A stretch of 61,898 nt of DNA, the filler included, from Basidiobolus ranarum (taxonomy: Eukaryota), in assembly GCA_040143965.1 (NCBI GenBank). It is 18 parts of 18 records of this genome, joined end to end, with 100 filler letters (N's around TTAATTAATTAA, not from the genome) between each part and the next. Parts side by side here need not be neighbours in the genome. Positions count along the whole stretch, not along the records: positions 48,277 to 51,610 come from JASJQH010002560.1; positions 51,711 to 55,041 come from JASJQH010002561.1; 16 more parts are not named here. One strand, 5' to 3'. The translations under genes were made by a program, and so were the position numbers. The notes under the pieces were generated by a model, which worked only from the letters and a program-made list of their open reading frames with translations, was not told the DNA's origin and searched no databases. Shown in pieces: positions 42,740 through 60,319 of the stretch; within the stretch, counting starts at the first letter, position 1; each line of letters opens with the position of its first letter.

Positions 42740-44520
42740 ATAAGTCCAGAAAACTTTGAGCACTTACTGCTATATGTTGACCTTGGTTATTCCAGTATCA
42801 ATAGTGGTATATCAGAAGTTGAAGAAGAAGTAGATAGTTTTGTTATGGACTGGTTGTTATTGGCAAGCATTGGTCAACTCATAACACTTACTGTAAAGGA
42901 AGCAGCTTTGATTATTGAGGAATGGAGAGTTCAACCAAATCTTAGCAACCAGGTGTTGATTAGTTTTCTTACACTTTTACCACAGTTGATTGGCAACTGT
43001 TTCTTGCCACTGACCTGGTACAAGTTAAAAAAATTTGTCAACTGTATGACCTATAATCCTTCAGAAATTAAATTACCTTCATGTCCAAATGGTTGTTTGG
43101 CTTTCACTGTGATCTGAAAAACCTGAAGTCACATAGTGTTTGAACACAATTGGCAATCACTGAATTGGGTAATTATTGTTCATATATGGCTTACATAGCA
43201 TTGATTACCCATCTAAGTAATTAAACTACCTTTATGTCCAAATTGTTGTTTGGTTTTCACAAGTGATCTGAAAAACCTGTAGGCATATGCTGTTTGCACA
43301 CTATTGGCAATCACTTAATCAGGTAACTATTGTTCATATTTGGCTTACATACCATTTATTCCTTGTCTTAAAGTTTTGATGAAATCACCCAAATACAGAT
43401 CTTTGATCCAATACCAAAGTACTTGCTGTAATGCTGATGGTTTTACCAATATACTTGATGGATATCACTACTAGAATCTGAAAAGTCAAGGTTTCTTTGA
43501 GAACATGTATGATCATACATTTGCATTGGCTCTGGATGGGTTCTGACTTAACAAGTATACCATAGGATAGGCTTCTGGCCAATAATTTTAATCAACTTAA
43601 ATCTTCCTCCTTCTAAATGGTATGAGAGTAATAATACTTGGATACTATCCATCATATCAGGACCTAAGTGACTAGTACTTATAGATAGCTTCTTGGAGCC
43701 TTTGATTGTGGAATTTGAATGGATATCTAATGCAGTTCTGATGGGTGAATATTTTATTAAAGTTAATATCATTGTATGTACTGGTGACAATCCTGCCATC
43801 AGCAAACCTGGAAGTTTTTGCTAGCAGAGTGCACTATCTTGCTGTAGATTTTGTCAAATCAATGCAATTTACTCTATCAGGCATACACATTACTACTATC
43901 CAAATACAAAACTAAACTCCATGATTTTACCATCAAGAGCCTGGCCAGATTTCAACATGGTCACTGATATCAATTCACCTAATAGTAGTCTAATATCAAG
44001 CTTGGTATTAGCCATAAGCCTGAGACTATATTGCTAAAGGGGATCAGCTGGAGCCATAGCTTTCCATTCAGTGCTATGAACTTACTGTTCAACAATATTC
44101 ATGCTTTGTACTCTGTTATATAGTGGAAAACTCAATATGAAGGAGCCATATGAGATGGAATCAAAGCTTGAATCTGTTGGGAAAATGCTTGAAAACATTA
44201 AGATACCATCATATTTTACCAGAACTCCCATCAATATCCACACATTTAGGTGTTTATTCAAATGCAAAGACTGGAAGTATTGGAGTTATATATATTCAAG
44301 TAGAATCTTGAAACAATTTCTGCCTCATAAGTAATGGTAACATTGGCAGTTGTTTGTCAATATTGTTAATATATTATTATGGCATCAACTCACATTGGCA
44401 GATCCCAGACAGATGCAGCAGCTGTGCAAAGATTTTGTAATTGAATATGATTCACAGAACCAAGTGTTGTCCAAATCAATTCCAAATCCCCTAAACATGT
44501 TAATCATCTGTGATATTCCA
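42740..44520 (+). mobile_element. CACTA/CMC (Transposase_21/Tnp2-like) transposase pseudogene
   Basis: CPNGCLAF, ALALDGF, WPIILINLNLPPSKWY, SIISGPK, IDSFLEPLI, CTGDNPA, CRFCQI, KIPSYFTRTP, FKCKDWKYW. Confidence 0.85.
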
Positions 44521-46034
44521 CAGACTTTACCTCAGGCTCCTGAGAGTCCAGAATCAAAATTATGGGAAAATAGATGTCTGATGAAATTTCTTTTCTTCAG
44601 GACAATAAAACATGGGTTTTAAGTCCTCAGCCATCACAGAGAAAGCAAATAGGTTGCAAATGGGTTTACAAAGAAGAAATCCAGCTTATGTAACCATGGA
44701 GGAGACAAAGTAAGAATAGTCAGAGCAGCTGATATTTATANNNNNNNNNNNNNNNNNNNNNNNNNNNNNNNNNNNNNNNNNNNNTTAATTAATTAANNNN
44801 NNNNNNNNNNNNNNNNNNNNNNNNNNNNNNNNNNNNNNNNTTTGAGCTTTTTCAAAAAAACTATCACTCCTTTCGGATTGTGATATCAAAAGAATGTCAC
44901 AGCACATTCTAGCAGTTAGTGTTTGCCTCAGCAGAATCTTAGTCCGTCAGCTTCAAAGTGATATAGTACAGTGGATAGTGAGTTCACCTCAACTTTTCTT
45001 GCTGGATATTAAAACCATTGTATACGTGGTTCTGAGAATAAAAGTCGAAAATTCTTCTGATATTTAATGAGAGACGTAACTCGCTCATAATCAAGTCGAT
45101 CATCTAATATCCAGTCAAGCAATAATGTCAATTGAATGAAGAGCGAAACATACCTCAAAGGAGTGAAGCTTTCATGAGACCTTTAGGTACAGTTGCTTCT
45201 ATAATCCGCAGATACCTACGGTTGATTTCTTATGGCCAGAAATTCCCACTGAAAGCGCACTAGAGAAAGAACAAAAGAGATATATCAGCATAGATTCAGT
45301 TTGAAGGTGCATGTGGGCAAAAAAATACACTAGAGTGTCCTTCGGAGTCTAATTATAGAGATTGCGTCACACATGGAATGAACATTATGTACAAAAAAAC
45401 ATACTTTACTTTGACTTTGGATGTTTCATTATGGTGCTCATTGTAATGGCTTATAATTCAATACGGGAAGAAATGTTCAGCAGAGGATTCAAATATGCAG
45501 AGAGGCACAAGCGTGTGATGATTTTTGTGAAAGTATTCCTATATATTAGAAAACATCTTTGGATCCAATCGTCTTACTCTTCTTTGAAGAGTCGAATTCA
45601 GTTAGCAAATTAGTTACCGATCACAAGCGTAAAAGACATTCGGAAACTGTCAAAGCATACTAATGCTGCTTGATTGCTCTCTTATTCTGGATGACTTTGC
45701 AGTCCCTACTTGTTACCAAGATTCAATAGCACTTCGTGCTTCAGTTGCGTGGTTTGGAGTTTAAAATATTTTTAAAAGACTATAGGCAGTGTTATAGAGA
45801 TTAACATGAACAGTACAAAATAAACAAGCAAATTGATTACAGATTCAATTGAAGATTCGAAGGGAGCATTAAAAAGATGGAGATAATTTGAAATCAACAT
45901 ATGATACAAAGTACTCTATTTCATCTCATAACAAAATCCCTTATGTTTACGAGGATATATAGCAACTGAACGGAATCGAGAAGTAAAAGAAGACAGAAAA
46001 TTCGCTAGCAAGTAACACGAATATCAGGATATAG

Positions 46035-46604
46035 CTAGGTCAATTTCTGGGCAGCTGTGAGGACAGGGGACAGGCTCAGAGAATTGACAGTGTCAGATTT
46101 GAAGGCGCGGATCGCCTCAATTACAAGATGAAAATCTTCCGCATCCAGCCAATCTGCTTTTAACGGTTGTGTGACCTTACTGGACTTTTCTGAAGAGCTC
46201 TGTTCGAAATCAATAGAAGAGCCTATACTGTGAATATTCGAACCTACGGGATTATGAATTGTATCCTGTAGGACGGCACGTATCGCTTCTTGAGCATAAC
46301 CATAATCCTCAGTTGTATTCATCCAATCTTTTCTCACAAGCTTTGATGGAGTAATGGACTCCTCTTCCTGGCTCCTATACGCCCCAATGGTGTGTACATG
46401 CGATCCGGCTAAGGAATTGATAGTTTCTTCGTTTATGGACCGTATGGCTTCCTGTACATACCCTTGACTTTCTTCAGCATCCATCCAATCTCTTTGATCA
46501 ACCTGCTTCCTGACCGAATATGCACGGGAGCCGTTTACGACGACAGCACGAGCAGAGAGGGGTCTAGTAAACTTGGATACGATGGTTTTGATCATGTAAG
46601 ACAT
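46035..46604 (-). CDS. Hypothetical protein (about 189 aa) with mitochondrial-presequence-like N-terminus and three internal repeats
   Basis: Intact ORF in CpG-normal DNA. TATATAAAG about 80 nt upstream. N-terminus MSYMIKTIVSKFTRPLSARAVVVNGSRAYS lacks acidic residues. Three DWxxxEx(4-5)xEAIR repeats. Confidence 0.7.
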   Translation of the reverse strand: MSYMIKTIVSKFTRPLSARAVVVNGSRAYSVRKQVDQRDWMDAEESQGYVQEAIRSINEETINSLAGSHVHTIGAYRSQEEESITPSKLVRKDWMNTTEDYGYAQEAIRAVLQDTIHNPVGSNIHSIGSSIDFEQSSSEKSSKVTQPLKADWLDAEDFHLVIEAIRAFKSDTVNSLSLSPVLTAAQKLT

Positions 46605-47424
46605 GTTATTGGTAGAGATCAAGGGTTTGTTGAAGACGGGCGGAAGATATGCCAACGTTGCAAGGTTGGAATGCAAAGGCCGACTTTATATATTCGATCT
46701 ACTCTCCGGAAGTAGCAGTCAGATGGCCTAGATAGTAATGGACTTGGATCAGATCTCGAAGATCTGATTCCTGCCATGAAGCGATCCTCACCCATTGTGA
46801 AATGTACTGTAGTCTCTTGGCCCTCCCCTAGAGGAGCTTGCATAAATGGATTTGAACGATTCATCATCGTTGCGATAGGAAATTTCGGTGGACATGCATT
46901 AATTTGATCAGAATCTCAGCAGATGGTGGAATTAAACGCCACTAGTTTCGTTCTTGAATGGATAATCTTACTCCTGCGTAGAATTGTTTATCATTGGCCA
47001 TAACGCTATTATTAACCAATATACCACAGGGTTTAAACACGTTGTCTTAATGATTCGCAGATGTGCATCCTTTACTGTGAGAAGCGTGCCAAACTCATGA
47101 AATGTGCCTGGTTGGGATTATCCAGCTGTACATTGTTTACCATTGATTAACTATCCCTCAAAAAGCAAGTATGGCAAATATGAAACAGGTGACCACCAAG
47201 TCTAGCTCTTACCATGCTCTGTGCAGGAACATCGCGTGCCTATTCAGTTGAGGCACTTAAAACCCTAATTTATTGATGTGTATACATAGATAGGGCGGAC
47301 AACGCTACACAAAATAGTGATTCAAAGTATTACACAAAGAGGTGGTTTGAGTGCCTGATTTTAAATTCTAACTCGCGATGTACATAGAAAGCCCTGTAAA
47401 TTGAGATCACTACCAGTGGATGGG

Positions 47425-48176
47425 TTAGAATTTAACAAGCTTAGTCATAACAAGTTCGTCAGGGTTTTCCATCCTGAGATGCTGTAGACCAATTTCAATG
47501 ATGTCTCGAGCCTCCTGGGAGAATTTGCCATTCTCATCAGCACCGCACCAGTTCCCAGACGCTGCTTCAATGATTATCTCTAGCCCAAAATGTGTGCAGC
47601 AATGCTTGAACAGTTCTTCCATGTCAAGGACCTCCTTTACCGACGAGATATATGCTTGAAAGAATTGTTCAAGGAACTTCCAAACTGCTTCTTTTACAAG
47701 CTGGCTTTTGGATGTATGCCCCATTAAGAATATATTGACTGCAAAATGAGCTATTTCAACACCAGGGGAACTATATCCGAAGAATTCCCAATCTATTAAT
47801 GAAAGATAGGGGCTTGATTTAGTCCCGGCAATACTTTCATCAATAAAGACTGAACCGGTCCAGAAGTCACCAAATGTCAGGGCTTTTGCATTTGGTGAAT
47901 TTGCATCAATCAAGCATTGCCCAAATTCCCTCGCTCTTTGACCAATGGTTACAAAGTCTGGGACGTGTGCAGTTTCCAGGATGCCTTCTACACGCCCATA
48001 GACAGCATCCAAAAGCACCTCGCGTGACGGTAGATTGTTGAAAAAGGAATAAAGCTGAGACCAATGCTTATGCCCGAACAGGTGGATTTGAGCCATATAT
48101 TCTCCAAGCGAATGACCTATCCTGCCTCCTCGTGAAGAGTCATCCGTGAGAGACTCAAACCAGACTTTAAGGTTAG
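47425..48176 (-). CDS. APH/choline-kinase-fold phosphotransferase (methylthioribose kinase/PsiK-like), 5'-truncated
   Basis: Frame is open to the contig edge (NLKVWF...IGHSLGEYMAQIH). Catalytic loop LTFGDFWTGSV; metal-binding LIDWEF. Confidence 0.8.
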
Positions 48177-50248
48177 NNNNNNNNNNNNNNNNNNNNNNNN
48201 NNNNNNNNNNNNNNNNNNNNTTAATTAATTAANNNNNNNNNNNNNNNNNNNNNNNNNNNNNNNNNNNNNNNNNNNNTACAAAAGATTTTTCGGTTAATAA
48301 GTACATTTCTACATCCATAAATATATGGTCTTTTAGTACATATACCATTGGAAAGACCTAAAGGCAAAACCAATAAATTCATTTTTTAAAAAAGAGTATG
48401 ATGCATTAAGCTATATTTACATTCTAGCAAGTTACGTTGACACGCTTTCTCAGAGAATACCAATCATGTAAAGCAACAGTGAGAACTGCTTTAAGGAGGC
48501 TAAAAGCTAAGAGCTACACATGAGGATACTTCATAGTGAATGACCTGGATAAGTTGAACAACCAAGTTATAATAACTGGTATAAACGCGAGAAATGTAAC
48601 TAAAGTATATTGCTGTAAAGGCTAGATAGCAGTGTGATACAACGCAATTTCGATCGATTCTGATATTTACTGGTCGATAGAGTATAACGTATTAACAAAG
48701 TTTCGACTGCCATTAGCTGGTAAATAACTCACCAGTTCCGATAATTGTCGGTAGATCAATATTTCATAGAATATAAGCTGATCGCTCCCATAGCTCTTGA
48801 ATATCAAGAGGGACAAATGCCAGCTAAGTGACCACGAAAGCGAAACTTCAAAAACTGCAATCGGGATATCCTTATTTATATGAGAGTAGATCTGGAAAAG
48901 TGCTACTTTAATAGTGCGAGATCTGCTGGGCCTGTTCTCTAAATTGGCCATGAGGAGTTTATCTTTTTCTTGTGCGGACTGGATCTTGAATAGCTCCAAC
49001 GTCCAGATTTTGATTTAATCAGGGGCGTGTCAAGTTACCTGAAGCATACCATCTCGGAACGTTTCATTACAACATTGCAGAAGTAGCACATAGGCCAATG
49101 AAGTAAGAGGACATACGAGTTACTGAAGAAGGTAAAAAAGTACGAGTCCATAGCTGAAAGAGAGCAGGAACAAATTCAGAAAAAGGGGTTTATTTTAGAT
49201 ACAGTTTCCGTAAGTCTTGATCACTTCGAACCTGGTGCAATGTTCCAAGTGAACTTTGACATAACTCTTGCTAACGTAAGAGCTGCTTTCCCAAAGCTCT
49301 CAAGGTGGCGAGAAAATGGATGATTCGTATTACTTATTACCATTTGATGTTCATAACCACGCAACACCGTCTCTACATTACATATGAGTTTCTGATTCAT
49401 TCAGTGGTTTACCACGTGACAACTCACTCACGAACACTTACAATAAAGCTAGCAGTTTCGTTAACATGGCTGCTGATAGGGTTAGTTTTAGGTTAAACCT
49501 CATTTTTGTTTACAACAATTTTATTGGGTAACTACCTGTTCCTCGATCAAATAATCAATGATCGATCAGTTACTAAGGTTTGAAACACAAACTAACTGAA
49601 CTTTTCTATCCACAGTAGCTACCAATAACAGTATTATATATTTCGACAATTATCCCAGTTCTTTAGTCTAAATACATTTAAACATACTTAGGTATAGCTC
49701 AAATATATCAATAGCTAGTACTATTTGCTGATTTTGAATGAAGCACTAAGTATTTAACCATCATGATTTAGCCTTAAGATAGTAAGTAATGCACTCATGT
49801 GCTAAAATCTATATTAAGCTTAAGATATATGCTACTTTCCCCTTACATTTTTTTGTCTTCAAATTAGAATCTGACATTAATTGTGATCGTCAACATTTAC
49901 TCATAGTCTGTCCTTCATTAGGTAAGTAGAGATTATCAAAGAATGATAATGAACAGCTTCACTATATGCACTGAATTATAACTTTAAATAGTTAGGCAGA
50001 ACGGAATAATCGAGAGAGGCAAGGTTTTTATATATTTGGTATCACTAGTAACCGAGTAGCAGAACCCAAGAAAGGATGTTAGAGCAAATGATTGCTTATA
50101 TAATCAAGTTCGATTATCTCTATTTTTACCATTGTTAGTTGGACTTATATTGGATACGTATACTATAATGACATTTAGCTTGATGGTTTGCAGTTTATTC
50201 TGAAGTGTTTGTAAGACGTAATGCACATATAAAAGATAAATAAGAAGG

Positions 50249-51593
50249 TCAAATTCCTGATCGACTGAGCTCTGCTTTGAGGTACTTTTGGAACGAAGGA
50301 ACATAGTGATAGTTCATCAGTGTGTAATGAGCACCAGGCACATCGATATAATTGTTAACCTTTCGAGAGAACCCATCCCATCCTTTAAGCATACCGTTTA
50401 ACCAATCTTCCTTCTTACCAGCTAAAGGAATGGCATAAAATACAGAGACTCGTTCTACATTTCCGCTGGGTTCATAATTACGACCACATTTGAGTAACGA
50501 CTCTGCTATGTCAACCCACTTTTCAAGTTGGATCTGATCGATTTCCAATTCCTTAATTCTGTCTGGGGAAGCCTTCGACCAAATATAATCAATCTGCTCT
50601 GCACGAGTCAAAGTGTGAAGATACGGGGAAACCTTTTTAGCCTCTTCCTTGGTTATAAGATCTAGGAAATAGGACAAGTTCAAGAAACCCTCGGTCCAAT
50701 TTAATTCAAGCATTCTTGGCTTGATGTGGGGTGGAATGTTTACTAGTCCGACAAAGGCTACCCGTTGATTTTGAGCTTCTAATCGTTTAGCAATCTCGTA
50801 TGCTACCACTCCACCATAAGAATACCCGGCCACGGCGTAAGGTCCTTCAGGTTGGGTCTTGCGAATGGCTGCAGTATAAATGTCGGCCATCTCTTCCATG
50901 GATTCGAAGTAAGTTTGATTTTCATCAAATCCTCGAGCTCTCAATGCGTAGAATGGTCGCTCATTCACAAAATACTTCGCCAAATTGACAAAGATAAGGA
51001 CTTCACCTACACCAGGATGGACAAAGAATATGGGCACACCTGATCCCGTTACTTGTAACGGTACCACTGGATCATAGTTCTGGTTTGGCAAACCTCCCGT
51101 GACATTCGATTTGGTTTCATCCAAGTGTGTTGCAAGTGCTCGAATAGTTGGATGTTGCATGATTCTGATGACTGGCCAGTTCTTTGATGAAACGATTTAG
51201 TAAAAGTATTTCATCATATTATTAGATTATTCTAGTCTTACCTTCTCTAGTTTAAAATGTTCAATAATTCTTGCTTTGTACCTGAATTAAGTAATTGAAT
51301 TAGTTGGTGGACACAACGAAGGATTATACTACCTAAAGAAGAGCACTTACTGTACGACTTCTAGTGAGGAGCCCCCCATATTGAAGAAATTTTCTTCTAC
51401 GCACATCTCTTCAGAAGGTACATCAAAAATTCGTGACAAGAAGGAAGTCAAGATGAGTTCTGTGTCTGAAGTTGGCTTCTTATATTTTAAAGCCTTTCTT
51501 GCTTGGATAATTTTCTCGACGCTCTTCAAGCACTCGTTGAATTCCCCTTTTTCATATCGTTGACGTAGTTTATAATGAGCCGGTTTTTCGAAT
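50249..51593 (-). CDS. NRPS-like enzyme of the quinone-synthetase (A-T-TE) type: end of A domain, T domain, thioesterase; 5'-truncated
   Basis: Exons 51593-51351, 51281-51242 and 51181-50249. Ppant site FFNMGGSSLEV. TE motifs YDPVVPLQ, FFVHPGVGEVLIFVNLAKYF..RPFYALRARGF, GYSYGG, GLVNIPPH, VPGAHYTLM. Confidence 0.92.
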
Positions 51594-52069
51594 CTATTCG
51601 TGAATTAAATNNNNNNNNNNNNNNNNNNNNNNNNNNNNNNNNNNNNNNNNNNNNTTAATTAATTAANNNNNNNNNNNNNNNNNNNNNNNNNNNNNNNNNN
51701 NNNNNNNNNNTATGGCATCTGTACAAAGATTTTGTACTTGGCTATGCAAAGCTCTATTACAGGTTTAAAGAAGATAGACTGAATCTATGCTGGTATGCAA
51801 TGCATTTCCTGCTGCATCTTTCAAAATGCTTTGAGATTATAGGTCCTTGCCATACATATGGGGAGTTCCCAATGGAGTGCATCTGTGGTGAAATGATGCT
51901 CCATGTAAAAGTGTGAGTATTACTGTAAGCTAATCTGATTAACAATGTATCAGCAAAATCAGTGATGAATGTAATGCAATGGGTTAAGGAGACTCCAGAG
52001 TATATTAACCTTCCAACAAAGGGCTCTTTTTAATGTGCTCATGGTTTTTTGCATTTTTTGAGCACAATA

Positions 52070-54350
52070 AAAGCAACAAAACCCAAAATAACAGCAGTAT
52101 GCTTTACTAGCAAGCTAACCATGCAAAATTACTGAACATCTGAATTTTGGAAAGGCACTGACATTAGGCAAATAGCTGACTTATGTCGCCATTCACAATA
52201 AAAATAAACTCTTGAATGTTGATAAATTTCCTTAAGGAGTTTAGCCAATGTATCCCCAACTAGCATTCAACAAGAGTCCTCCCACAAGTAGATGTATCAT
52301 TGCTTGAATGGAATACCCTAGGTTAAAACAATAATCCTGCATATCTCAATCTATCTTACCAAGAATTCTGTCTTGCAGCTCTCCTAGAAATACCATCAGA
52401 TTAGCACACAAACAAATTAGTTCTAATTCAAGAGATACTTATTCTGATTCCATGAATTTGGTTTTGCTGTTGTTGCTGTGCCTAAAATCTCCTTATCCCA
52501 ATACATTACAATCATCACTCACTTTGCTGATAAATTGTTAATCAGATTAGCATACTGTAATACTGACAGTTTTACATGGAGCATTATTATAACACAGATA
52601 TACTCCATTTGAAGCTCTCATAATAGTAAACAAGGGCCTATAATCTCTAAGCATTGGGAAAGGTGGGGCAGAGAATCTATTGAATGCCAGCATTGATTCA
52701 GTCTCTCTTCTCTACACCTGTAAAAAAGTTTTCATATCAAACTACAAAATCTTTGCCAAGTTGCTGTATCTGCCAGAGATCTGCCAATGTAAGTTGATGC
52801 TGTAAGAATTTATTACCAATATCCACAAACAACTCCCAATGTTGTCAATACTTATCAGGCAGAAATCTTCTCAAGATTCCACTTGAATATATTCAAATCC
52901 AACACTTCCAGTCTTTGCATTTACATGAACACCTATATGTGTAGACAATGATGGGAGTCCTGGTAAAATATGAAGGTATCTTAACATCTTCAAGCATATT
53001 GCCAGTTGATTTGATCTTTAATCATTTCTTCAATGGCTTGAGCAGATCAAGTTTTCCACTCTATAGCTGAGTAAGTAGTATTGCAATGTTGTTGAATAAC
53101 AAGTGAATAGTGCCTAATGGGAAGCTTTGGCTCTAGCTGATCCTCAATAGCAATAAATTCTTGGGCTAATGCCTAATCTGAAGTTTGATGTTAGACTGAC
53201 TATTTGGTGAATTGATATCCATGAGCATGTTGAAATCTAACCAGGCTCTATATGGTAAAATCATGGAGCTTAGTGTTGTATTTGGATAGTAGTAATATGT
53301 AGGCCTTGTAGAGTAAACTCCATTAATTTTGCAAAATCTACAGCAATATTGTGTGCTGTACCTGCCGGAATCTCCAAATCTACTGATGGCAGAAGTATCA
53401 AAAATATTTACAATGATATTGGCCTTAAAAAATATTCACCTCTCTGAACCCCATTAGATAACCATTCAAATTCTGCAATCAAAGGCTCCAAGAAGCTATC
53501 TATAAAAACCGGGGATGTAGGCCCAGACACCATGGATAGTACCAAGCCAATATAAATCTTATACCATTAAGAAGGAGGAACATAGAACTTATTTAAAATA
53601 TTTGGCCAGCAAGTCTTTCCAATTATATATATGTTTAGTGAGAAACCTTGCAGAGTCAATGCAAGTGCATGATTATGTGTAATCTTAAAGAAACCTTGAC
53701 TTTTCAGATTCTGGTAGTTATATTCATCAAGTGTACCATATCATCAAAGCTTTATTATGGGGAATCAATGGAATATATGCCAAATATGAATGATATTTAC
53801 CTGATTTAGTGATTGCCAATTGTGTGCAAACAGTACATGGCTACAGGTTTTATGATCACCAGTGAAAGCAAAACATCCATTTGGATATGATGGTAGTTTA
53901 ATTCCTGAAGGATTATAAGTAATACAATTGATAAGTGTTTTCCAGTTGCACCAGGACTGTGGTAAGCAAAAGTTGCCAATCTACTCTGGTAAAAGTGTAA
54001 GAACACCAATAAACACCTGGCTGCTAAGATTAGATTGAAATCTCTACTTGTTGATAATCAAAGCTGCTTCCTTTACTGTAAGTATTATGAGTGGACTAAT
54101 GCTTGTGAATAACAGAGAATCCATTACAAAGTTGCTATCTTGTTCTTCATCTTTTGATATACTGCTTAACAGTAATGGAATAACAGAGGTCAACATTTGG
54201 CAGCATGTCCTCAAAGTAGTCTGGACTTATTGGTTCAGCCAAAGTTGCATTTCTACCTATATCATTCTGGTAATATAACTTTGGTAACTTTGCAGTATCT
54301 TAACTATCAGCAGTGTTACCAATACTTTGAGGTAGAGGACAGCTAGTGGA
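52070..54350 (-). mobile_element. CACTA/CMC (Transposase_21-like) transposase pseudogene, second copy
   Basis: Reverse-complement homolog of 42740-44450, continuing into the region shared with 2950-3361. Confidence 0.83.
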
Positions 54351-54388
54351 CTCAGTGGGCAAAACTAAAGTCAATTTTGTGCACTTAT

Positions 54389-55041
54389 TGTTGAAATTAT
54401 ATATATAGCAACTCATTATTTAGTAGTTAGTTTATTCATATTCTGATTATTTAGTACTCAATTCTGTCATTCAAAAAAATGTGTTTATTGCTCTAATTGA
54501 TAAAAACATCAATTAGATCACTTTTACCAATTTTCACTATTTTTTCAAAACTTCTCCAAATCACCTCATGTTTTCACCCATGCTTAAAAGGCATGTTTGT
54601 TATGAGCTAAGCATGTCCAATAGTCCTATTTCATAGTAAACTATTAATTGGACATATTCAATTCATTAAAACTAAAGTGTCTAATTCACAGATCCAAATC
54701 TTGTCCAAAACACTTCCAAATCCCCTAAATGCTTTTATCAGGTTATGGGCCCCAAGCTAGTTGTTGAAGGAATGTCTACCAGTGCTATTACTAACATTTT
54801 TGCATCTACAGAGAAGTTTGATGGTGAAGACTTTCACCTTTGGAAGATCAAGATGCAAATGGTGCTAGAAGACAAGGACCTTTGGGGATTTGTTACAGGA
54901 GAAGAAATAGAGCCAAAGGGACCACCAGACGCTGTCCTTGCCTTTCACAAGAAGCAGAGGAAAGCACTCTCTACACTTTGTCTACATCTCAGAGATTCTC
55001 AATTGAGGCACATACAATCAGCCAAAAACGTCCAAAATGCT
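54389..55041 (+). mobile_element. Ty1/copia family B 5' LTR (54389-54740), PBS and uninterrupted start of gag
   Basis: TGTTGAAA...TTTTATCA; PBS GGTTATGGGCCCC at 54741; gag EKFDGEDFHLWKIKMQMVLEDKDLW open to the contig end. Confidence 0.94.
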
Positions 55042-58471: not shown

Positions 58472-58571
58472 NNNNNNNNNNNNNNNNNNNNNNNNNNNNN
58501 NNNNNNNNNNNNNNNTTAATTAATTAANNNNNNNNNNNNNNNNNNNNNNNNNNNNNNNNNNNNNNNNNNNN

Positions 58572-60319
58572 TTAGGTTCCAAACTCTGCCCCATGGTTAC
58601 AAACATGTCCATCAAATCCTTGCACAATCGAACTCCATCTGAAGTGACATACAGTTTGTCGCTAGAGTGCAATGTATCATCAAAACGCTTGAGAATTCCC
58701 ACACCATATGTAAATCTGGCTTTACGTTGAGTCACTACAGCGGGATTAGCTCCAAAGAGTACGGCACCTAAACCTTCATTAGAAGCTTTGAAATTTGCAG
58801 TAATTTCTATCGACAGATGCTTTACCTCTCATTACCGCTTCACCCGGAGTAGTTGGGATAACAATATCAACGCCTTTAGTTCGCCCTAAAACTTCAAAAC
58901 TCTGTTGTAAAGCAATACAATTCGCAAAATTTCCTACTAATACAACTTTGCTAGAGAACGGTTAAAATTGATGCGTACTTGCTTAAACTGAACTATTGGC
59001 ATAGAACTACCTTATTTTTTTGTTATTTTCAAGTATTGTTTGTACGTGCTTCACCGTAGTATTTATAGTTGGTGCAAGAAACGTGTCATAGAAATATTTT
59101 CGAGGAATACACAGATTGGGACCTTTGATATTAAACTCCACTTGCTTCTCCTCTGCAAATCTATCAACTGTCTCATTCGAAGTTAGGTCATCGGGGTCAG
59201 CGTTTGCAGTTAGAGTATCAGGTAATACTAAAATTATATCTGATTCATTGTCAAAGGATATCTTCGCATTTTCCACATCATCTTGAAGTCTTGTATAACC
59301 CAAAGGGTCGTTAAGTAGTGCTTTGTAACGGTGTACACCAAATAATTGCTCAAGAAACTTTAGAATACGCTTGTTGACTACCGTTGATCCCCAGTCACCG
59401 CCTGTTGCTGGAATGACTATAGCAAAATTTTAGAGCTGGAAGACTGAATCTCATTCACAAATACATCCTACCTTCTCTGACGGTACGCCCACTATCAACA
59501 ACAGGCCCCACCTCATGAACTGTGACATCAATTGTCCCACCACCACAATCACATACCATATAGTATGATCCCTCTTTTTGCTCAATTCCCTGACTTTGAA
59601 GTACCCACAAGGAAGCCGCTTCTGGCTCTAGTGCAAGTTGTACACCTGTACCAACCAATTCGGCCAATTTGGCTGCTTCTTTCATCACTCGTTTGGCTGC
59701 ATCACTCCAGATTGCAGGGACAGTTAGCACCCATTTAATATCCTTGGGGTCTATATCACTATTGACTTTTTGGATTTGCTCCGAAGCCACTGCAAAGGGT
59801 TATTAATATCAGAGAGGAATGAATCAGTAACTCTAAAAAACCTTTTTTGATATAGCGTAAACTTTCCGAGAACACAATAGCTGCCGATACTTTATCTCCA
59901 TTTTCAGCCTCAATTGTTATATTATCATCCACTGACTCCGTGTACAATTTCATCTTGAAGAATTGAAAGAGTTTTCCTCTTCCTTTCATAGCTAAAGACT
60001 TATATTTGGTCTGTGCTGCACTTCCAAACGCGATAAATTCATTATCATCACTCAGTAATAATGCAGTTTTGGTTTTTCCAGCAAAACCATCTCTCCAAGG
60101 AGCATTTGGATATATTGAACCTCTCGGTTCAGTGATTCCAGCAACACCAGGGAAAGCATAAGCATAGCTACCGATCAAAATATTAGTATTTCTCAAAGCA
60201 ATATTTACATACAACCCGTCCTACCCTGTTCCGTATGTTCCGAAATCTATCGCTACCACACACTTGGCAGATGTTGGTCCCAGATGTTCTCTAAATATGT
60301 CCGGCGTAGGACCACTCAT
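58572..60319 (-). CDS. Atypical Hsp70 (HSPA12-like), multi-exon, 3'-truncated
   Basis: ATG 60319. VVAIDFGTYGTG|YAY, WVLTVPAIWSDAAKRVM, LALEPEAAS, VCDCGGGTID, GGDWGSTVV, RKARFTYGV. Introns include 60224-60168, 59841-59790 and 59471-59417. Confidence 0.9.

What the first reader, a model, noticed from the sequence alone, without database searches (positions are those of the whole stretch)
50249..51610. Quinone-synthetase-type NRPS-like gene with introns in an apparently early-diverging fungus
The T-TE sequence closely follows the aryl-pyruvate-dimerising A-T-TE enzymes (atromentin synthetase AtrA/GreA/InvA, TdiA, bacterial RalA/EchA types). The triad appears to be Ser (GYSYGG), Asn (GLVNIPP) and His (GAHYT), the arrangement associated with quinone rather than furanone formation. 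These enzymes are known from Dikarya and some bacteria. With at least three introns, this copy is fully eukaryotic in structure. Inference: an unreported terphenylquinone or bis-indolylquinone pathway in this lineage, possibly from an old transfer. The A10 region reads FEKPAHYKL rather than a typical GK motif.
Basis: partly seen in the sequence, partly recalled or inferred. Interest (0 to 1): 0.7.

Follow-up and report, generated by a model that had tools for sequence, protein, structure and literature searches.

The report
Quinone-synthetase gene half in Basidiobolus
This is the back half of a real gene of the frog-gut fungus Basidiobolus that closely resembles the enzymes mushrooms use to make the pigment atromentin; it belongs to a much-duplicated gene family, its odd front end is stray DNA at a contig edge, and whether this particular copy works is unresolved.

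Summary
The T–TE half of an A-T-TE (NRPS-like) gene is real: spliced, 397 stop-free codons, 85% identical to a full-length Basidiobolus ranarum protein encoded elsewhere in this genome. There are two introns, not three. The 'third intron' and the odd A10 motif come from the contig's last 40 nt, which match a tRNA-cassette contig exactly. The A domain lies on another contig (98% identical overlap). It has no introns, no C domain and a normal GKLSR motif, but carries a premature stop, so this copy's status is open. The family has at least 17 loci here: one complete intact paralog, several clean fragments, many decayed copies; dN/dS is 0.02–0.07. A-domain code position 5 is Asn, the published hydroxyphenylpyruvate signature, so atromentin is the likeliest product. 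The Ser/Asn/His triad is present but not diagnostic. No linked aminotransferase was found. The closest relatives are chytrid genes. A Basidiobolus-plus-bacteria clade is rejected (AU p=6e-7); a special link to Boletales is not supported (Dikarya monophyly p=0.57). Databases already auto-label a B. meristosporus homologue 'atromentin synthetase'; my eight paper searches found no characterised case outside Dikarya and bacteria. The scan had no look-alike finding. New member of a known kind.

The parts
51571..51610 (.). 40 nt of foreign DNA at the contig end, identical to G000:C8468:2667-2706 (tRNA-cassette contig); source of the apparent 'third intron' and 'FEKPAHY'; 1-nt overlap with the gene at 51571
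51351..51571 (-). exon remnant: end of the A domain (after the A10 lysine), linker and first part of the T domain; 51397-51571 overlaps G000:C9193 at 172/175 nt
51365..51367 (-). phosphopantetheine-accepting Ser of the T domain (GGSSL, aligned to GGTSI of AtrA)
51282..51350 (-). intron 1, 69 nt, phase 2, GTAAGT..TTCAG; same position in paralogs
51242..51281 (-). 40-nt micro-exon in the T domain
51182..51241 (-). intron 2, 60 nt, phase 0, GTAAGA..AAG (paralogs have CAG or TAG acceptors)
50249..51181 (-). last exon: end of T domain and complete thioesterase domain, 310 codons plus TGA; dN/dS 0.016-0.067 against 9 paralog pieces
50819..50821 (-). TE nucleophile Ser (GYSYGG)
50738..50740 (-). TE Asn (LVNIPP), aligned with the Asp of a solved NRPS TE (4zxh)
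50327..50329 (-). TE His (GAHYT)
49468..49584 (-). conserved non-coding stretch downstream of the gene; its homologue lies about 850-950 nt upstream of the start codon in two paralogs (C8226, C2520); hints at a former head-to-tail array

Best explanation
The stretch is the 3' 42% of one copy of a Basidiobolus family of tri-domain A-T-TE quinone-synthetase-type enzymes. Shown: domain layout, motifs, two T-domain introns, strong purifying selection, an intact full-length paralog (C7980 = P0001), and the near-identical A-domain half on C9193. Inferred from the characterised family: the A domain adenylates an aromatic alpha-keto acid (Val at code position 1), most likely 4-hydroxyphenylpyruvate from tyrosine (Asn at position 5); the T domain carries it as a thioester; the TE holds one unit on Ser and joins two units by two Claisen/Dieckmann-type condensations to release atromentin (about 55%; some other aryl-pyruvate dimer about 35%). 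The keto acid would come from an unlinked housekeeping aminotransferase. The family evolves by birth and death, partly in tandem. Whether this copy is active is open (about even): the assembled 5' half has a premature stop inside the overlap, and the assembled 3' half is joined to foreign DNA, most simply an assembly chimera.
For: 85% identity over 397 aa to P0001 and 49% to the characterised AtrA. P0001 is encoded letter for letter by C7980 after removing the two introns. Pfam A-T-TE and no C domain. Position 5: AtrA N318 and P0001 N315 map to NPS3 Asn323 by the +5 offset of the TE residues. Asn at that position was found in 108 of 307 motif-matched full-length homologues, all 108 among the Basidiobolus, chytrid and Boletales-dominated hits. 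dN/dS 0.016-0.067. At least 17 loci carry the T region. C2520 holds the end of one copy and the start of the next 2.9 kb apart.
Against: No biochemical or expression data. Position 5 contributes to but does not strictly set specificity (PMC10316625). The triad is not diagnostic. Only cyclic peptides are reported from Basidiobolus cultures; 'quinone' does not occur in PMC10964425 or PMC10478498. No aminotransferase on any copy's contig among 10 PF00155 matches, but only 9 of 43 candidates were scored and contigs are short. The Asn census is dominated by many Suillus entries and holds no characterised ascomycete atromentin synthetase. The A domain has CDHVA where most relatives have FDHVA, effect unknown.
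Confidence: 0.6

Rival explanations
1. This particular locus is a young pseudogene: the stop in C9193 and the join to tRNA-cassette DNA are both real, so no intact allele remains. Compatible with the family-level reading.
For: In-frame stop in C9193 inside the overlap; foreign join in C2560; only one copy of each half at about 98% identity; 23 of 37 examined family pieces carry lesions; weak AAG acceptor in intron 2.
Against: All 397 codons in the window and 557 codons of the A domain are open; the foreign piece is only 40 nt, ends at the contig end and comes from a cassette whose ends repeat, as expected of a chimeric read; both contig ends are dead ends; 3 differences in 175 nt fit two alleles.
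Confidence: 0.45
2. Same enzyme type but another product: polyporic acid, a mixed quinone, or a furanone/butenolide/dioxolanone core.
For: TE residues mis-predicted MelA; position 5 is not strict; the TE sets the core and its mechanism is not resolved (PMC9047271); full-length identity to bacterial homologues (43-46%) is as high as to Boletales (41-42%).
Against: Asn at position 5 and the LVNIPPH / HYTLM TE motifs match Boletales atromentin synthetases; the one row auto-named furanone synthase in my set has Asp, not Asn.
Confidence: 0.3
3. Direct horizontal transfer from bacteria into Basidiobolus, as published for many of its NRPS genes.
For: PMC7466969 reports frequent bacterial transfer of NRPS and NRPS-like genes; the A domain is intron-free; most A-domain hits after the early-diverging fungi are bacterial.
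Against: Basidiobolus groups with Spizellomyces and Geranomyces (SH-aLRT 99); holding 2 Basidiobolus rows with 16 bacterial-type rows costs 119.5 log units, p-AU 5.6e-7. An older transfer into a fungal ancestor is not excluded.
Confidence: 0.07
4. One reading: a third intron at the contig end and a genuinely altered A10 motif.
For: A TAG lies at 51594-51596 and the frame is open across the junction.
Against: No intron there in any of the four paralogs that span this site; the 40 nt match another contig's interior at 100%; C9193 shows the normal motif.
Confidence: 0.03
5. Tail of an ordinary multimodular NRPS, or contamination from a bolete or bacterium.
For: The genome holds many long NRPS ORFs with TE domains at 29-39% identity.
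Against: The overlapping contig starts at Met and has only an A domain; copies sit beside 60S ribosomal L5, arrestin and amidohydrolase genes; homologues at 85-86% in B. meristosporus.
Confidence: 0.02

Closest known systems
Boletales atromentin synthetases (clade II; AtrA of Tapinella panuoides = P0096, NPS3, InvA, GreA)
   Same: A-T-TE layout, about 950 aa, Val at code position 1, Asn at position 5, GYSYGG / (L)xNIPPH / HYTLM TE motifs; 49% identity over T-TE and 41-42% full length.
   Different: Zoopagomycete host; intron-free A domain and two T-domain introns (phases 2 and 0) against an average of 4.5 introns with pattern 1-0-2-2-1 (positions not comparable, figure not held); no clustered aminotransferase seen; large family with many decayed copies; product untested.
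Uncharacterised homologues in B. meristosporus (P0002; P0003 auto-named 'atromentin synthetase'), Spizellomyces, Geranomyces and Calcarisporiella (P0005, P0129)
   Same: Closest relatives: 73%, 51%, 47% and 51% full-length identity to P0001; Basidiobolus + chytrids SH-aLRT 99; chytrids share Asn5.
   Different: Calcarisporiella copies have Thr or Tyr at position 5, and P0129 has Asp in the TE; none is characterised in the papers I could search.
Bacterial A-T-TE enzymes (RalA / EchA type as named in PMC10316625; here Hyalangium, Streptomyces, Nocardiopsis, Xenorhabdus homologues)
   Same: Same layout; 43-46% identity; mostly Ser/Asn/His.
   Different: Ile/Val at position 5 (phenylpyruvate type); no introns; not the sister group. 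RalA and EchA themselves were not in my set.
Clade I basidiomycete and ascomycete enzymes (CorA, HapA, PpaA1, AcyN, TdiA, MelA)
   Same: Same layout and chemistry.
   Different: More distant (about 30-42% for 50%-cluster representatives); the named enzymes were represented only by unnamed or auto-named relatives.

Membership tests
Non-reducing NRPS-like A-T-TE enzymes | A, T and TE domains in one protein, no C domain | tested here: met
   P0001 Pfam; window T-TE plus overlapping A-only contig C9193 starting at Met. For this copy the link rests on a 172/175-nt overlap.
Non-reducing NRPS-like A-T-TE enzymes | T-domain phosphopantetheine Ser | tested here: met
   GGSSL at 51365-51367 aligned to AtrA GGTSI.
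Non-reducing NRPS-like A-T-TE enzymes | Val at code position 1 (alpha-keto acid activation) | tested here: met
   DHVAG in C9193, C8226 and P0001, same column as AtrA; rule from PMC10316625. GrsA numbering itself was not aligned.
Non-reducing NRPS-like A-T-TE enzymes | A10 lysine (GK motif) | tested here: met
   LGKLSR in C9193 and four paralogs; absent from the window contig because foreign DNA replaces it.
Non-reducing NRPS-like A-T-TE enzymes | Intact reading frame over the whole gene at this locus | tested here: inconclusive
   Stop in C9193, foreign join in C2560; no reads available. Met for paralog C7980.
Atromentin synthetases | Asn at code position 5 | tested here: met
   RINSGGE in C9193, C8226 and P0001; mapped to NPS3 Asn323.
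Atromentin synthetases | TE triad Ser/Asn/His | tested here: met
   not diagnostic of the product.
Atromentin synthetases | Clustered aromatic aminotransferase (Boletales atr cluster) | tested here: inconclusive
   None on any copy's contig among 10 PF00155 matches, 9 of 43 candidates scored; none among flanking ORFs; contigs are short.
Atromentin synthetases | Member of basidiomycete clade II by phylogeny | tested here: inconclusive
   Free tree joins Basidiobolus + chytrids with Boletales at SH-aLRT 90, but a tree with all Dikarya rows together fits as well (p-AU 0.57).
Atromentin synthetases | Makes atromentin from 4-hydroxyphenylpyruvate | not testable with these tools
   Needs an enzyme assay.
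Bis-indolylquinone synthetases (TdiA type) | Indole-3-pyruvate code and linked prenyltransferase / Trp aminotransferase | tested here: inconclusive
   TdiA was not in my set, so its code was not compared; position 5 matches the hydroxyphenylpyruvate signature; PMC7466969 predicts no DMAT genes in Mucoromycota or Zoopagomycota.

The most novel reading that the evidence does not exclude
Basidiobolus, with Spizellomycetales chytrids, makes atromentin-type terphenylquinones using an expanded, fast-turning-over gene family, and these Asn5 enzymes share a lineage with the Boletales atromentin synthetases. That would explain why bolete clade II stands apart from other Dikarya enzymes, push mushroom-pigment chemistry back to early fungi or to fungus-to-fungus transfer, and give the fungus a motility- and biofilm-modulating compound for shaping the amphibian and reptile gut microbiome.
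Probability: 0.25. Interest if true: 0.7.

Novelty: new member of a known kind. Interest (0 to 1): 0.4.

Why it matters
Only 15 natural products were known from the whole phylum Zoopagomycota in 2023, none a quinone (PMC10478498). An intact full-length paralog with a clear substrate prediction makes a cheap test. Terphenylquinones act on bacterial motility and biofilms (PMC10316625), which bears on the proposal that Basidiobolus structures gut bacterial communities (PMC10964425). The homologues in chytrids, Calcarisporiella, an amoebozoan and a diatom are missing from the quinone-synthetase phylogenies I read and bear on the 'evolved twice' reading. The enzyme type itself is well known, and the features that made this copy look unusual are artefacts or ordinary.

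Tried and rejected
Third intron and altered A10: rejected. Using other window genes (RPP2, RPS31, LETM1) for taxonomy or as cluster neighbours: rejected, they lie on unrelated contigs. Genome-contig scan with P0001 alone found nothing; repeated with alignment A2 it gave 524 confirmed of 592 stretches, 80 kept. Two bacterial rows (L101, L115) were translated in the wrong frame in the FastTree run and were dropped from counts and from the IQ-TREE set (44 of 110 rows used). The attractive grouping of Boletales with Basidiobolus and chytrids did not survive the AU test. The lesion census flagged C5119, C5126 and frameshifts in C9193 wrongly through compensating gaps; direct translation showed them open. 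No repeats of note on the contig. No solved structure of a close relative: best PDB hits are general NRPS TE domains, E about 1e-18. No remnant of a downstream tandem copy's coding sequence in the window flank. No sequencing reads could be examined, so the junction and expression stay open. No structure prediction was run, as it would not decide the product. Primary papers on the triad (Braesel 2015, Wackler 2011 and 2012, Geib 2019) were seen only as reference-list entries.

Full report
Setting. The window is a chain of contigs of about 3.3 kb separated by N spacers. The finding lies on window 48277-51610 = G000:C2560. Genes elsewhere in the window are not its neighbours. The TE exon's best database hit is P0001, named Basidiobolus ranarum (88%), then B. 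meristosporus (85-86% for two full-length proteins, one auto-named 'atromentin synthetase'), Calcarisporiella (66%), Spizellomyces (63%) and Boletales (55-58%). G000:C7980, spliced, translates to P0001 exactly, so the genome is Basidiobolus (Zoopagomycota). Family copies sit beside 60S ribosomal L5, arrestin and amidohydrolase genes, which argues against contamination.

Observation. On the minus strand there are three exons: 51571-51351, 51281-51242 and 51181-50249. Two introns (69 nt GT..CAG, phase 2; 60 nt GT..AAG, phase 0) give 397 codons plus stop with no internal stop, 85.1% identical to P0001 553-949 and 49.4% to AtrA. Both introns are at the same sites in the paralogs aligned. The T-domain Ser and the TE Ser, Asn and His are present; the Asn aligns with the Asp of a solved NRPS thioesterase, and the three motifs match the flanks given for the NPS3 triad in 10.1101/2020.03.25.008516 (passage).

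The third intron and odd A10 motif are not real. All four paralogs that span this site read TKNSLGKLSRGKL with no intron. Homology of the window to the family stops at 51571. A 34-nt pattern from the remaining end occurs twice in the genome: here and in C8468. All 40 terminal bases match C8468:2667-2706 at 100%, sharing one base with the gene. C8468 is a 5.5-kb contig with 13 tRNA genes and identical 111-nt ends. A chimeric read from a repeated cassette is the simplest cause (inference); a real rearrangement cannot be excluded without reads.

The A domain. G000:C9193 overlaps the window by 175 nt with three differences; the other paralogs match that region at 68-82%. It holds an intron-free A domain from Met, open for 557 codons, with a normal GKLSR, no C domain, and an in-frame stop at the site matching window 51544, where the window has a sense codon. 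Each half is present once in the assembly and both ends are dead ends. So there are two alleles or very recent copies, one with a stop and one joined to foreign DNA; an intact allele is about as likely as not.

The family. A TE search gave 122 matches from 128 scored candidates, including unrelated NRPS thioesterases. The T-domain region marks at least 17 loci (20 matches, less C9193, C8468 and one duplicate). Of 37 family pieces examined, 14 are free of stops, frameshifts and large indels and 23 are not, after correcting alignment artefacts; pieces are not loci. C7980 is complete; C8226, C5119 and C2832 are clean but cut by contig ends. dN/dS of the window's TE exon against 9 paralog pieces is 0.016-0.067, with dS 0.36-2.1, so this lineage was long under purifying selection. 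C2520 shows a tandem pair, and the window's 3' flank holds an element that lies upstream of the start in two paralogs. This is birth-and-death evolution.

Mechanism. By PMC10316625 (parts 1-4 of 7 read: abstract, introduction, results, discussion), such enzymes adenylate an aromatic alpha-keto acid and dimerise it by two Claisen/Dieckmann-type condensations. Val at code position 1 marks keto-acid activation. Position 5 is Asn in atromentin synthetases (NPS3 Asn323) and Ile/Val in polyporic acid synthetases, and it contributes to but does not fix specificity. NPS3 numbering runs 5 ahead of AtrA in the TE, which places Asn323 on RxNSGGE (AtrA N318, P0001 N315). C9193, C8226 and P0001 all have Asn. 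Of 307 motif-matched full-length homologues fetched, 108 have Asn, all among the hits (Basidiobolus, chytrids, mostly Boletales); Ile and Val account for 160. Atromentin is therefore my best guess (about 55%). The triad adds little: Asn occurs in 18 of 22 in-frame bacterial-type rows, and MelA, a furanone synthetase, was first predicted to make a quinone from its TE residues (section 18 of the preprint). That Ser/Asn/His goes with quinones is otherwise recalled; PMC8403587 says only that the ring type depends on the triad (passage). No aminotransferase is linked: 10 PF00155 matches, none on a family contig, 9 of 43 candidates scored; flanking ORFs of 110 codons or more on 13 loci were listed and 14 scanned, with none found.

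Origin. In a 44-row IQ-TREE tree (LG+C20 PMSF, quick search, SH-aLRT only) Basidiobolus groups with Spizellomyces and Geranomyces (99), then Boletales (90). All fungal rows but one long-branched Calcarisporiella copy are split from protist and bacterial rows (98). Names come; several rows are unnamed and were classed by their place in the tree. Forcing Basidiobolus with the 16 bacterial-type rows is rejected (p-AU 5.6e-7). Forcing 17 Dikarya-type rows together is not rejected and scores 1.9 log units higher (p-AU 0.57), so the Boletales link is unproven. The gene is old in fungi, or moved between fungi; the ultimate source is unresolved. P0001 differs in composition from the alignment and there are long branches.

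Literature. Eight full-text searches (listings and abstracts) found no paper on a quinone synthetase in Basidiobolus, chytrids or Calcarisporiella. PMC7466969 (passages and section 14) counts NRPS-like genes in Basidiobolus but has no occurrence of 'quinone' or 'TdiA'; its supplements, which I did not read, may list the homologues. The atromentin preprint (outline, passages, sections 11 and 18) does not mention Basidiobolus, Mucoromycota or Zoopagomycota; its figures and supplements were not available. PMC10478498 and PMC10964425 (passages) list only cyclic peptides from Basidiobolus. PMC7073580 (passages) notes A-T-TE genes widely in algae. PMC9047271, PMC9893682, PMC9603100, PMC12105029 and 10.1101/2025.03.31.646025 were seen as passages only. 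Subscription journals are mostly missing from the library. The scan's own notes held no look-alike of this sequence.

Verdict. A real, previously undiscussed but automatically annotated member of a known enzyme family in an early-diverging fungus. The specific oddities flagged are artefacts, the triad argument is weak, and the activity of this copy is uncertain. The value lies in the intact paralog, the substrate prediction, the family expansion and the chytrid kinship. Interest 0.4; new member of a known kind.

Noticed in passing
L034 (G000:C8468:1-5456): Contig with 13 tRNA genes of 12 amino-acid types and identical 111-nt ends, suggesting a tandem or circular tRNA cassette. Only the tRNA genes, not the spacers, matched other contigs.
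   Followed up: partly
L043 (G000:C2520:2-220 and 3106-3390): End of one family copy and start of the next on the same strand, 2.9 kb apart: a tandem pair. L052 (C9348) shows a tandem second copy that lacks its A domain.
   Followed up: partly
L014, L016, L030, L043-L046 contig ends: Several lesion-free TE pieces share identical 60-mers at their contig ends: recent duplication or gene-conversion patches that break the assembly.
   Followed up: partly
L014:3360-4046 (G000:C960): NmrA-like NAD(P)-binding oxidoreductase about 3.7 kb downstream of a lesion-free TE copy; a possible tailoring gene, not seen beside other copies.
   Followed up: partly
P0123, P0140: A-T-TE homologues with Ser/Asn/His in an amoebozoan (Dracoamoeba) and a diatom (Stephanopyxis) transcriptome entry, grouping together (SH-aLRT 97) between fungi and bacteria.
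   Followed up: partly
P0002, P0003, P0004: B. meristosporus gene models appear mis-spliced at the 40-nt micro-exon (skipped or read wrongly); P0004 is a TE-only piece fused to an unrelated domain (PF14735), perhaps a merged gene model.
   Followed up: no
window 47425-48177 (-): 250-codon ORF with a DFWTGSVFID...LIDWEF motif resembling a small-molecule phosphotransferase (recalled resemblance); no Pfam hit; separate contig.
   Followed up: partly
window 46035-46685 (-): 216-codon ORF with three imperfect repeats (DWxDAE..YxxEAIRA); no Pfam hit.
   Followed up: partly
window 58520-60220 (-): Intron-split Hsp70-like gene (Pfam HSP70 E=1e-6 on one exon).
   Followed up: partly
window 54685-55041 (+): Copia-type gag start (Retrotran_gag_2) at a contig end.
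   Followed up: partly
window 51711-54460 and 43825-44690: Stretches with similar translated words (IPSYFTRTP, ISGRYSNLAKIL) on two contigs, probably copies of a decayed repeat.
   Followed up: no
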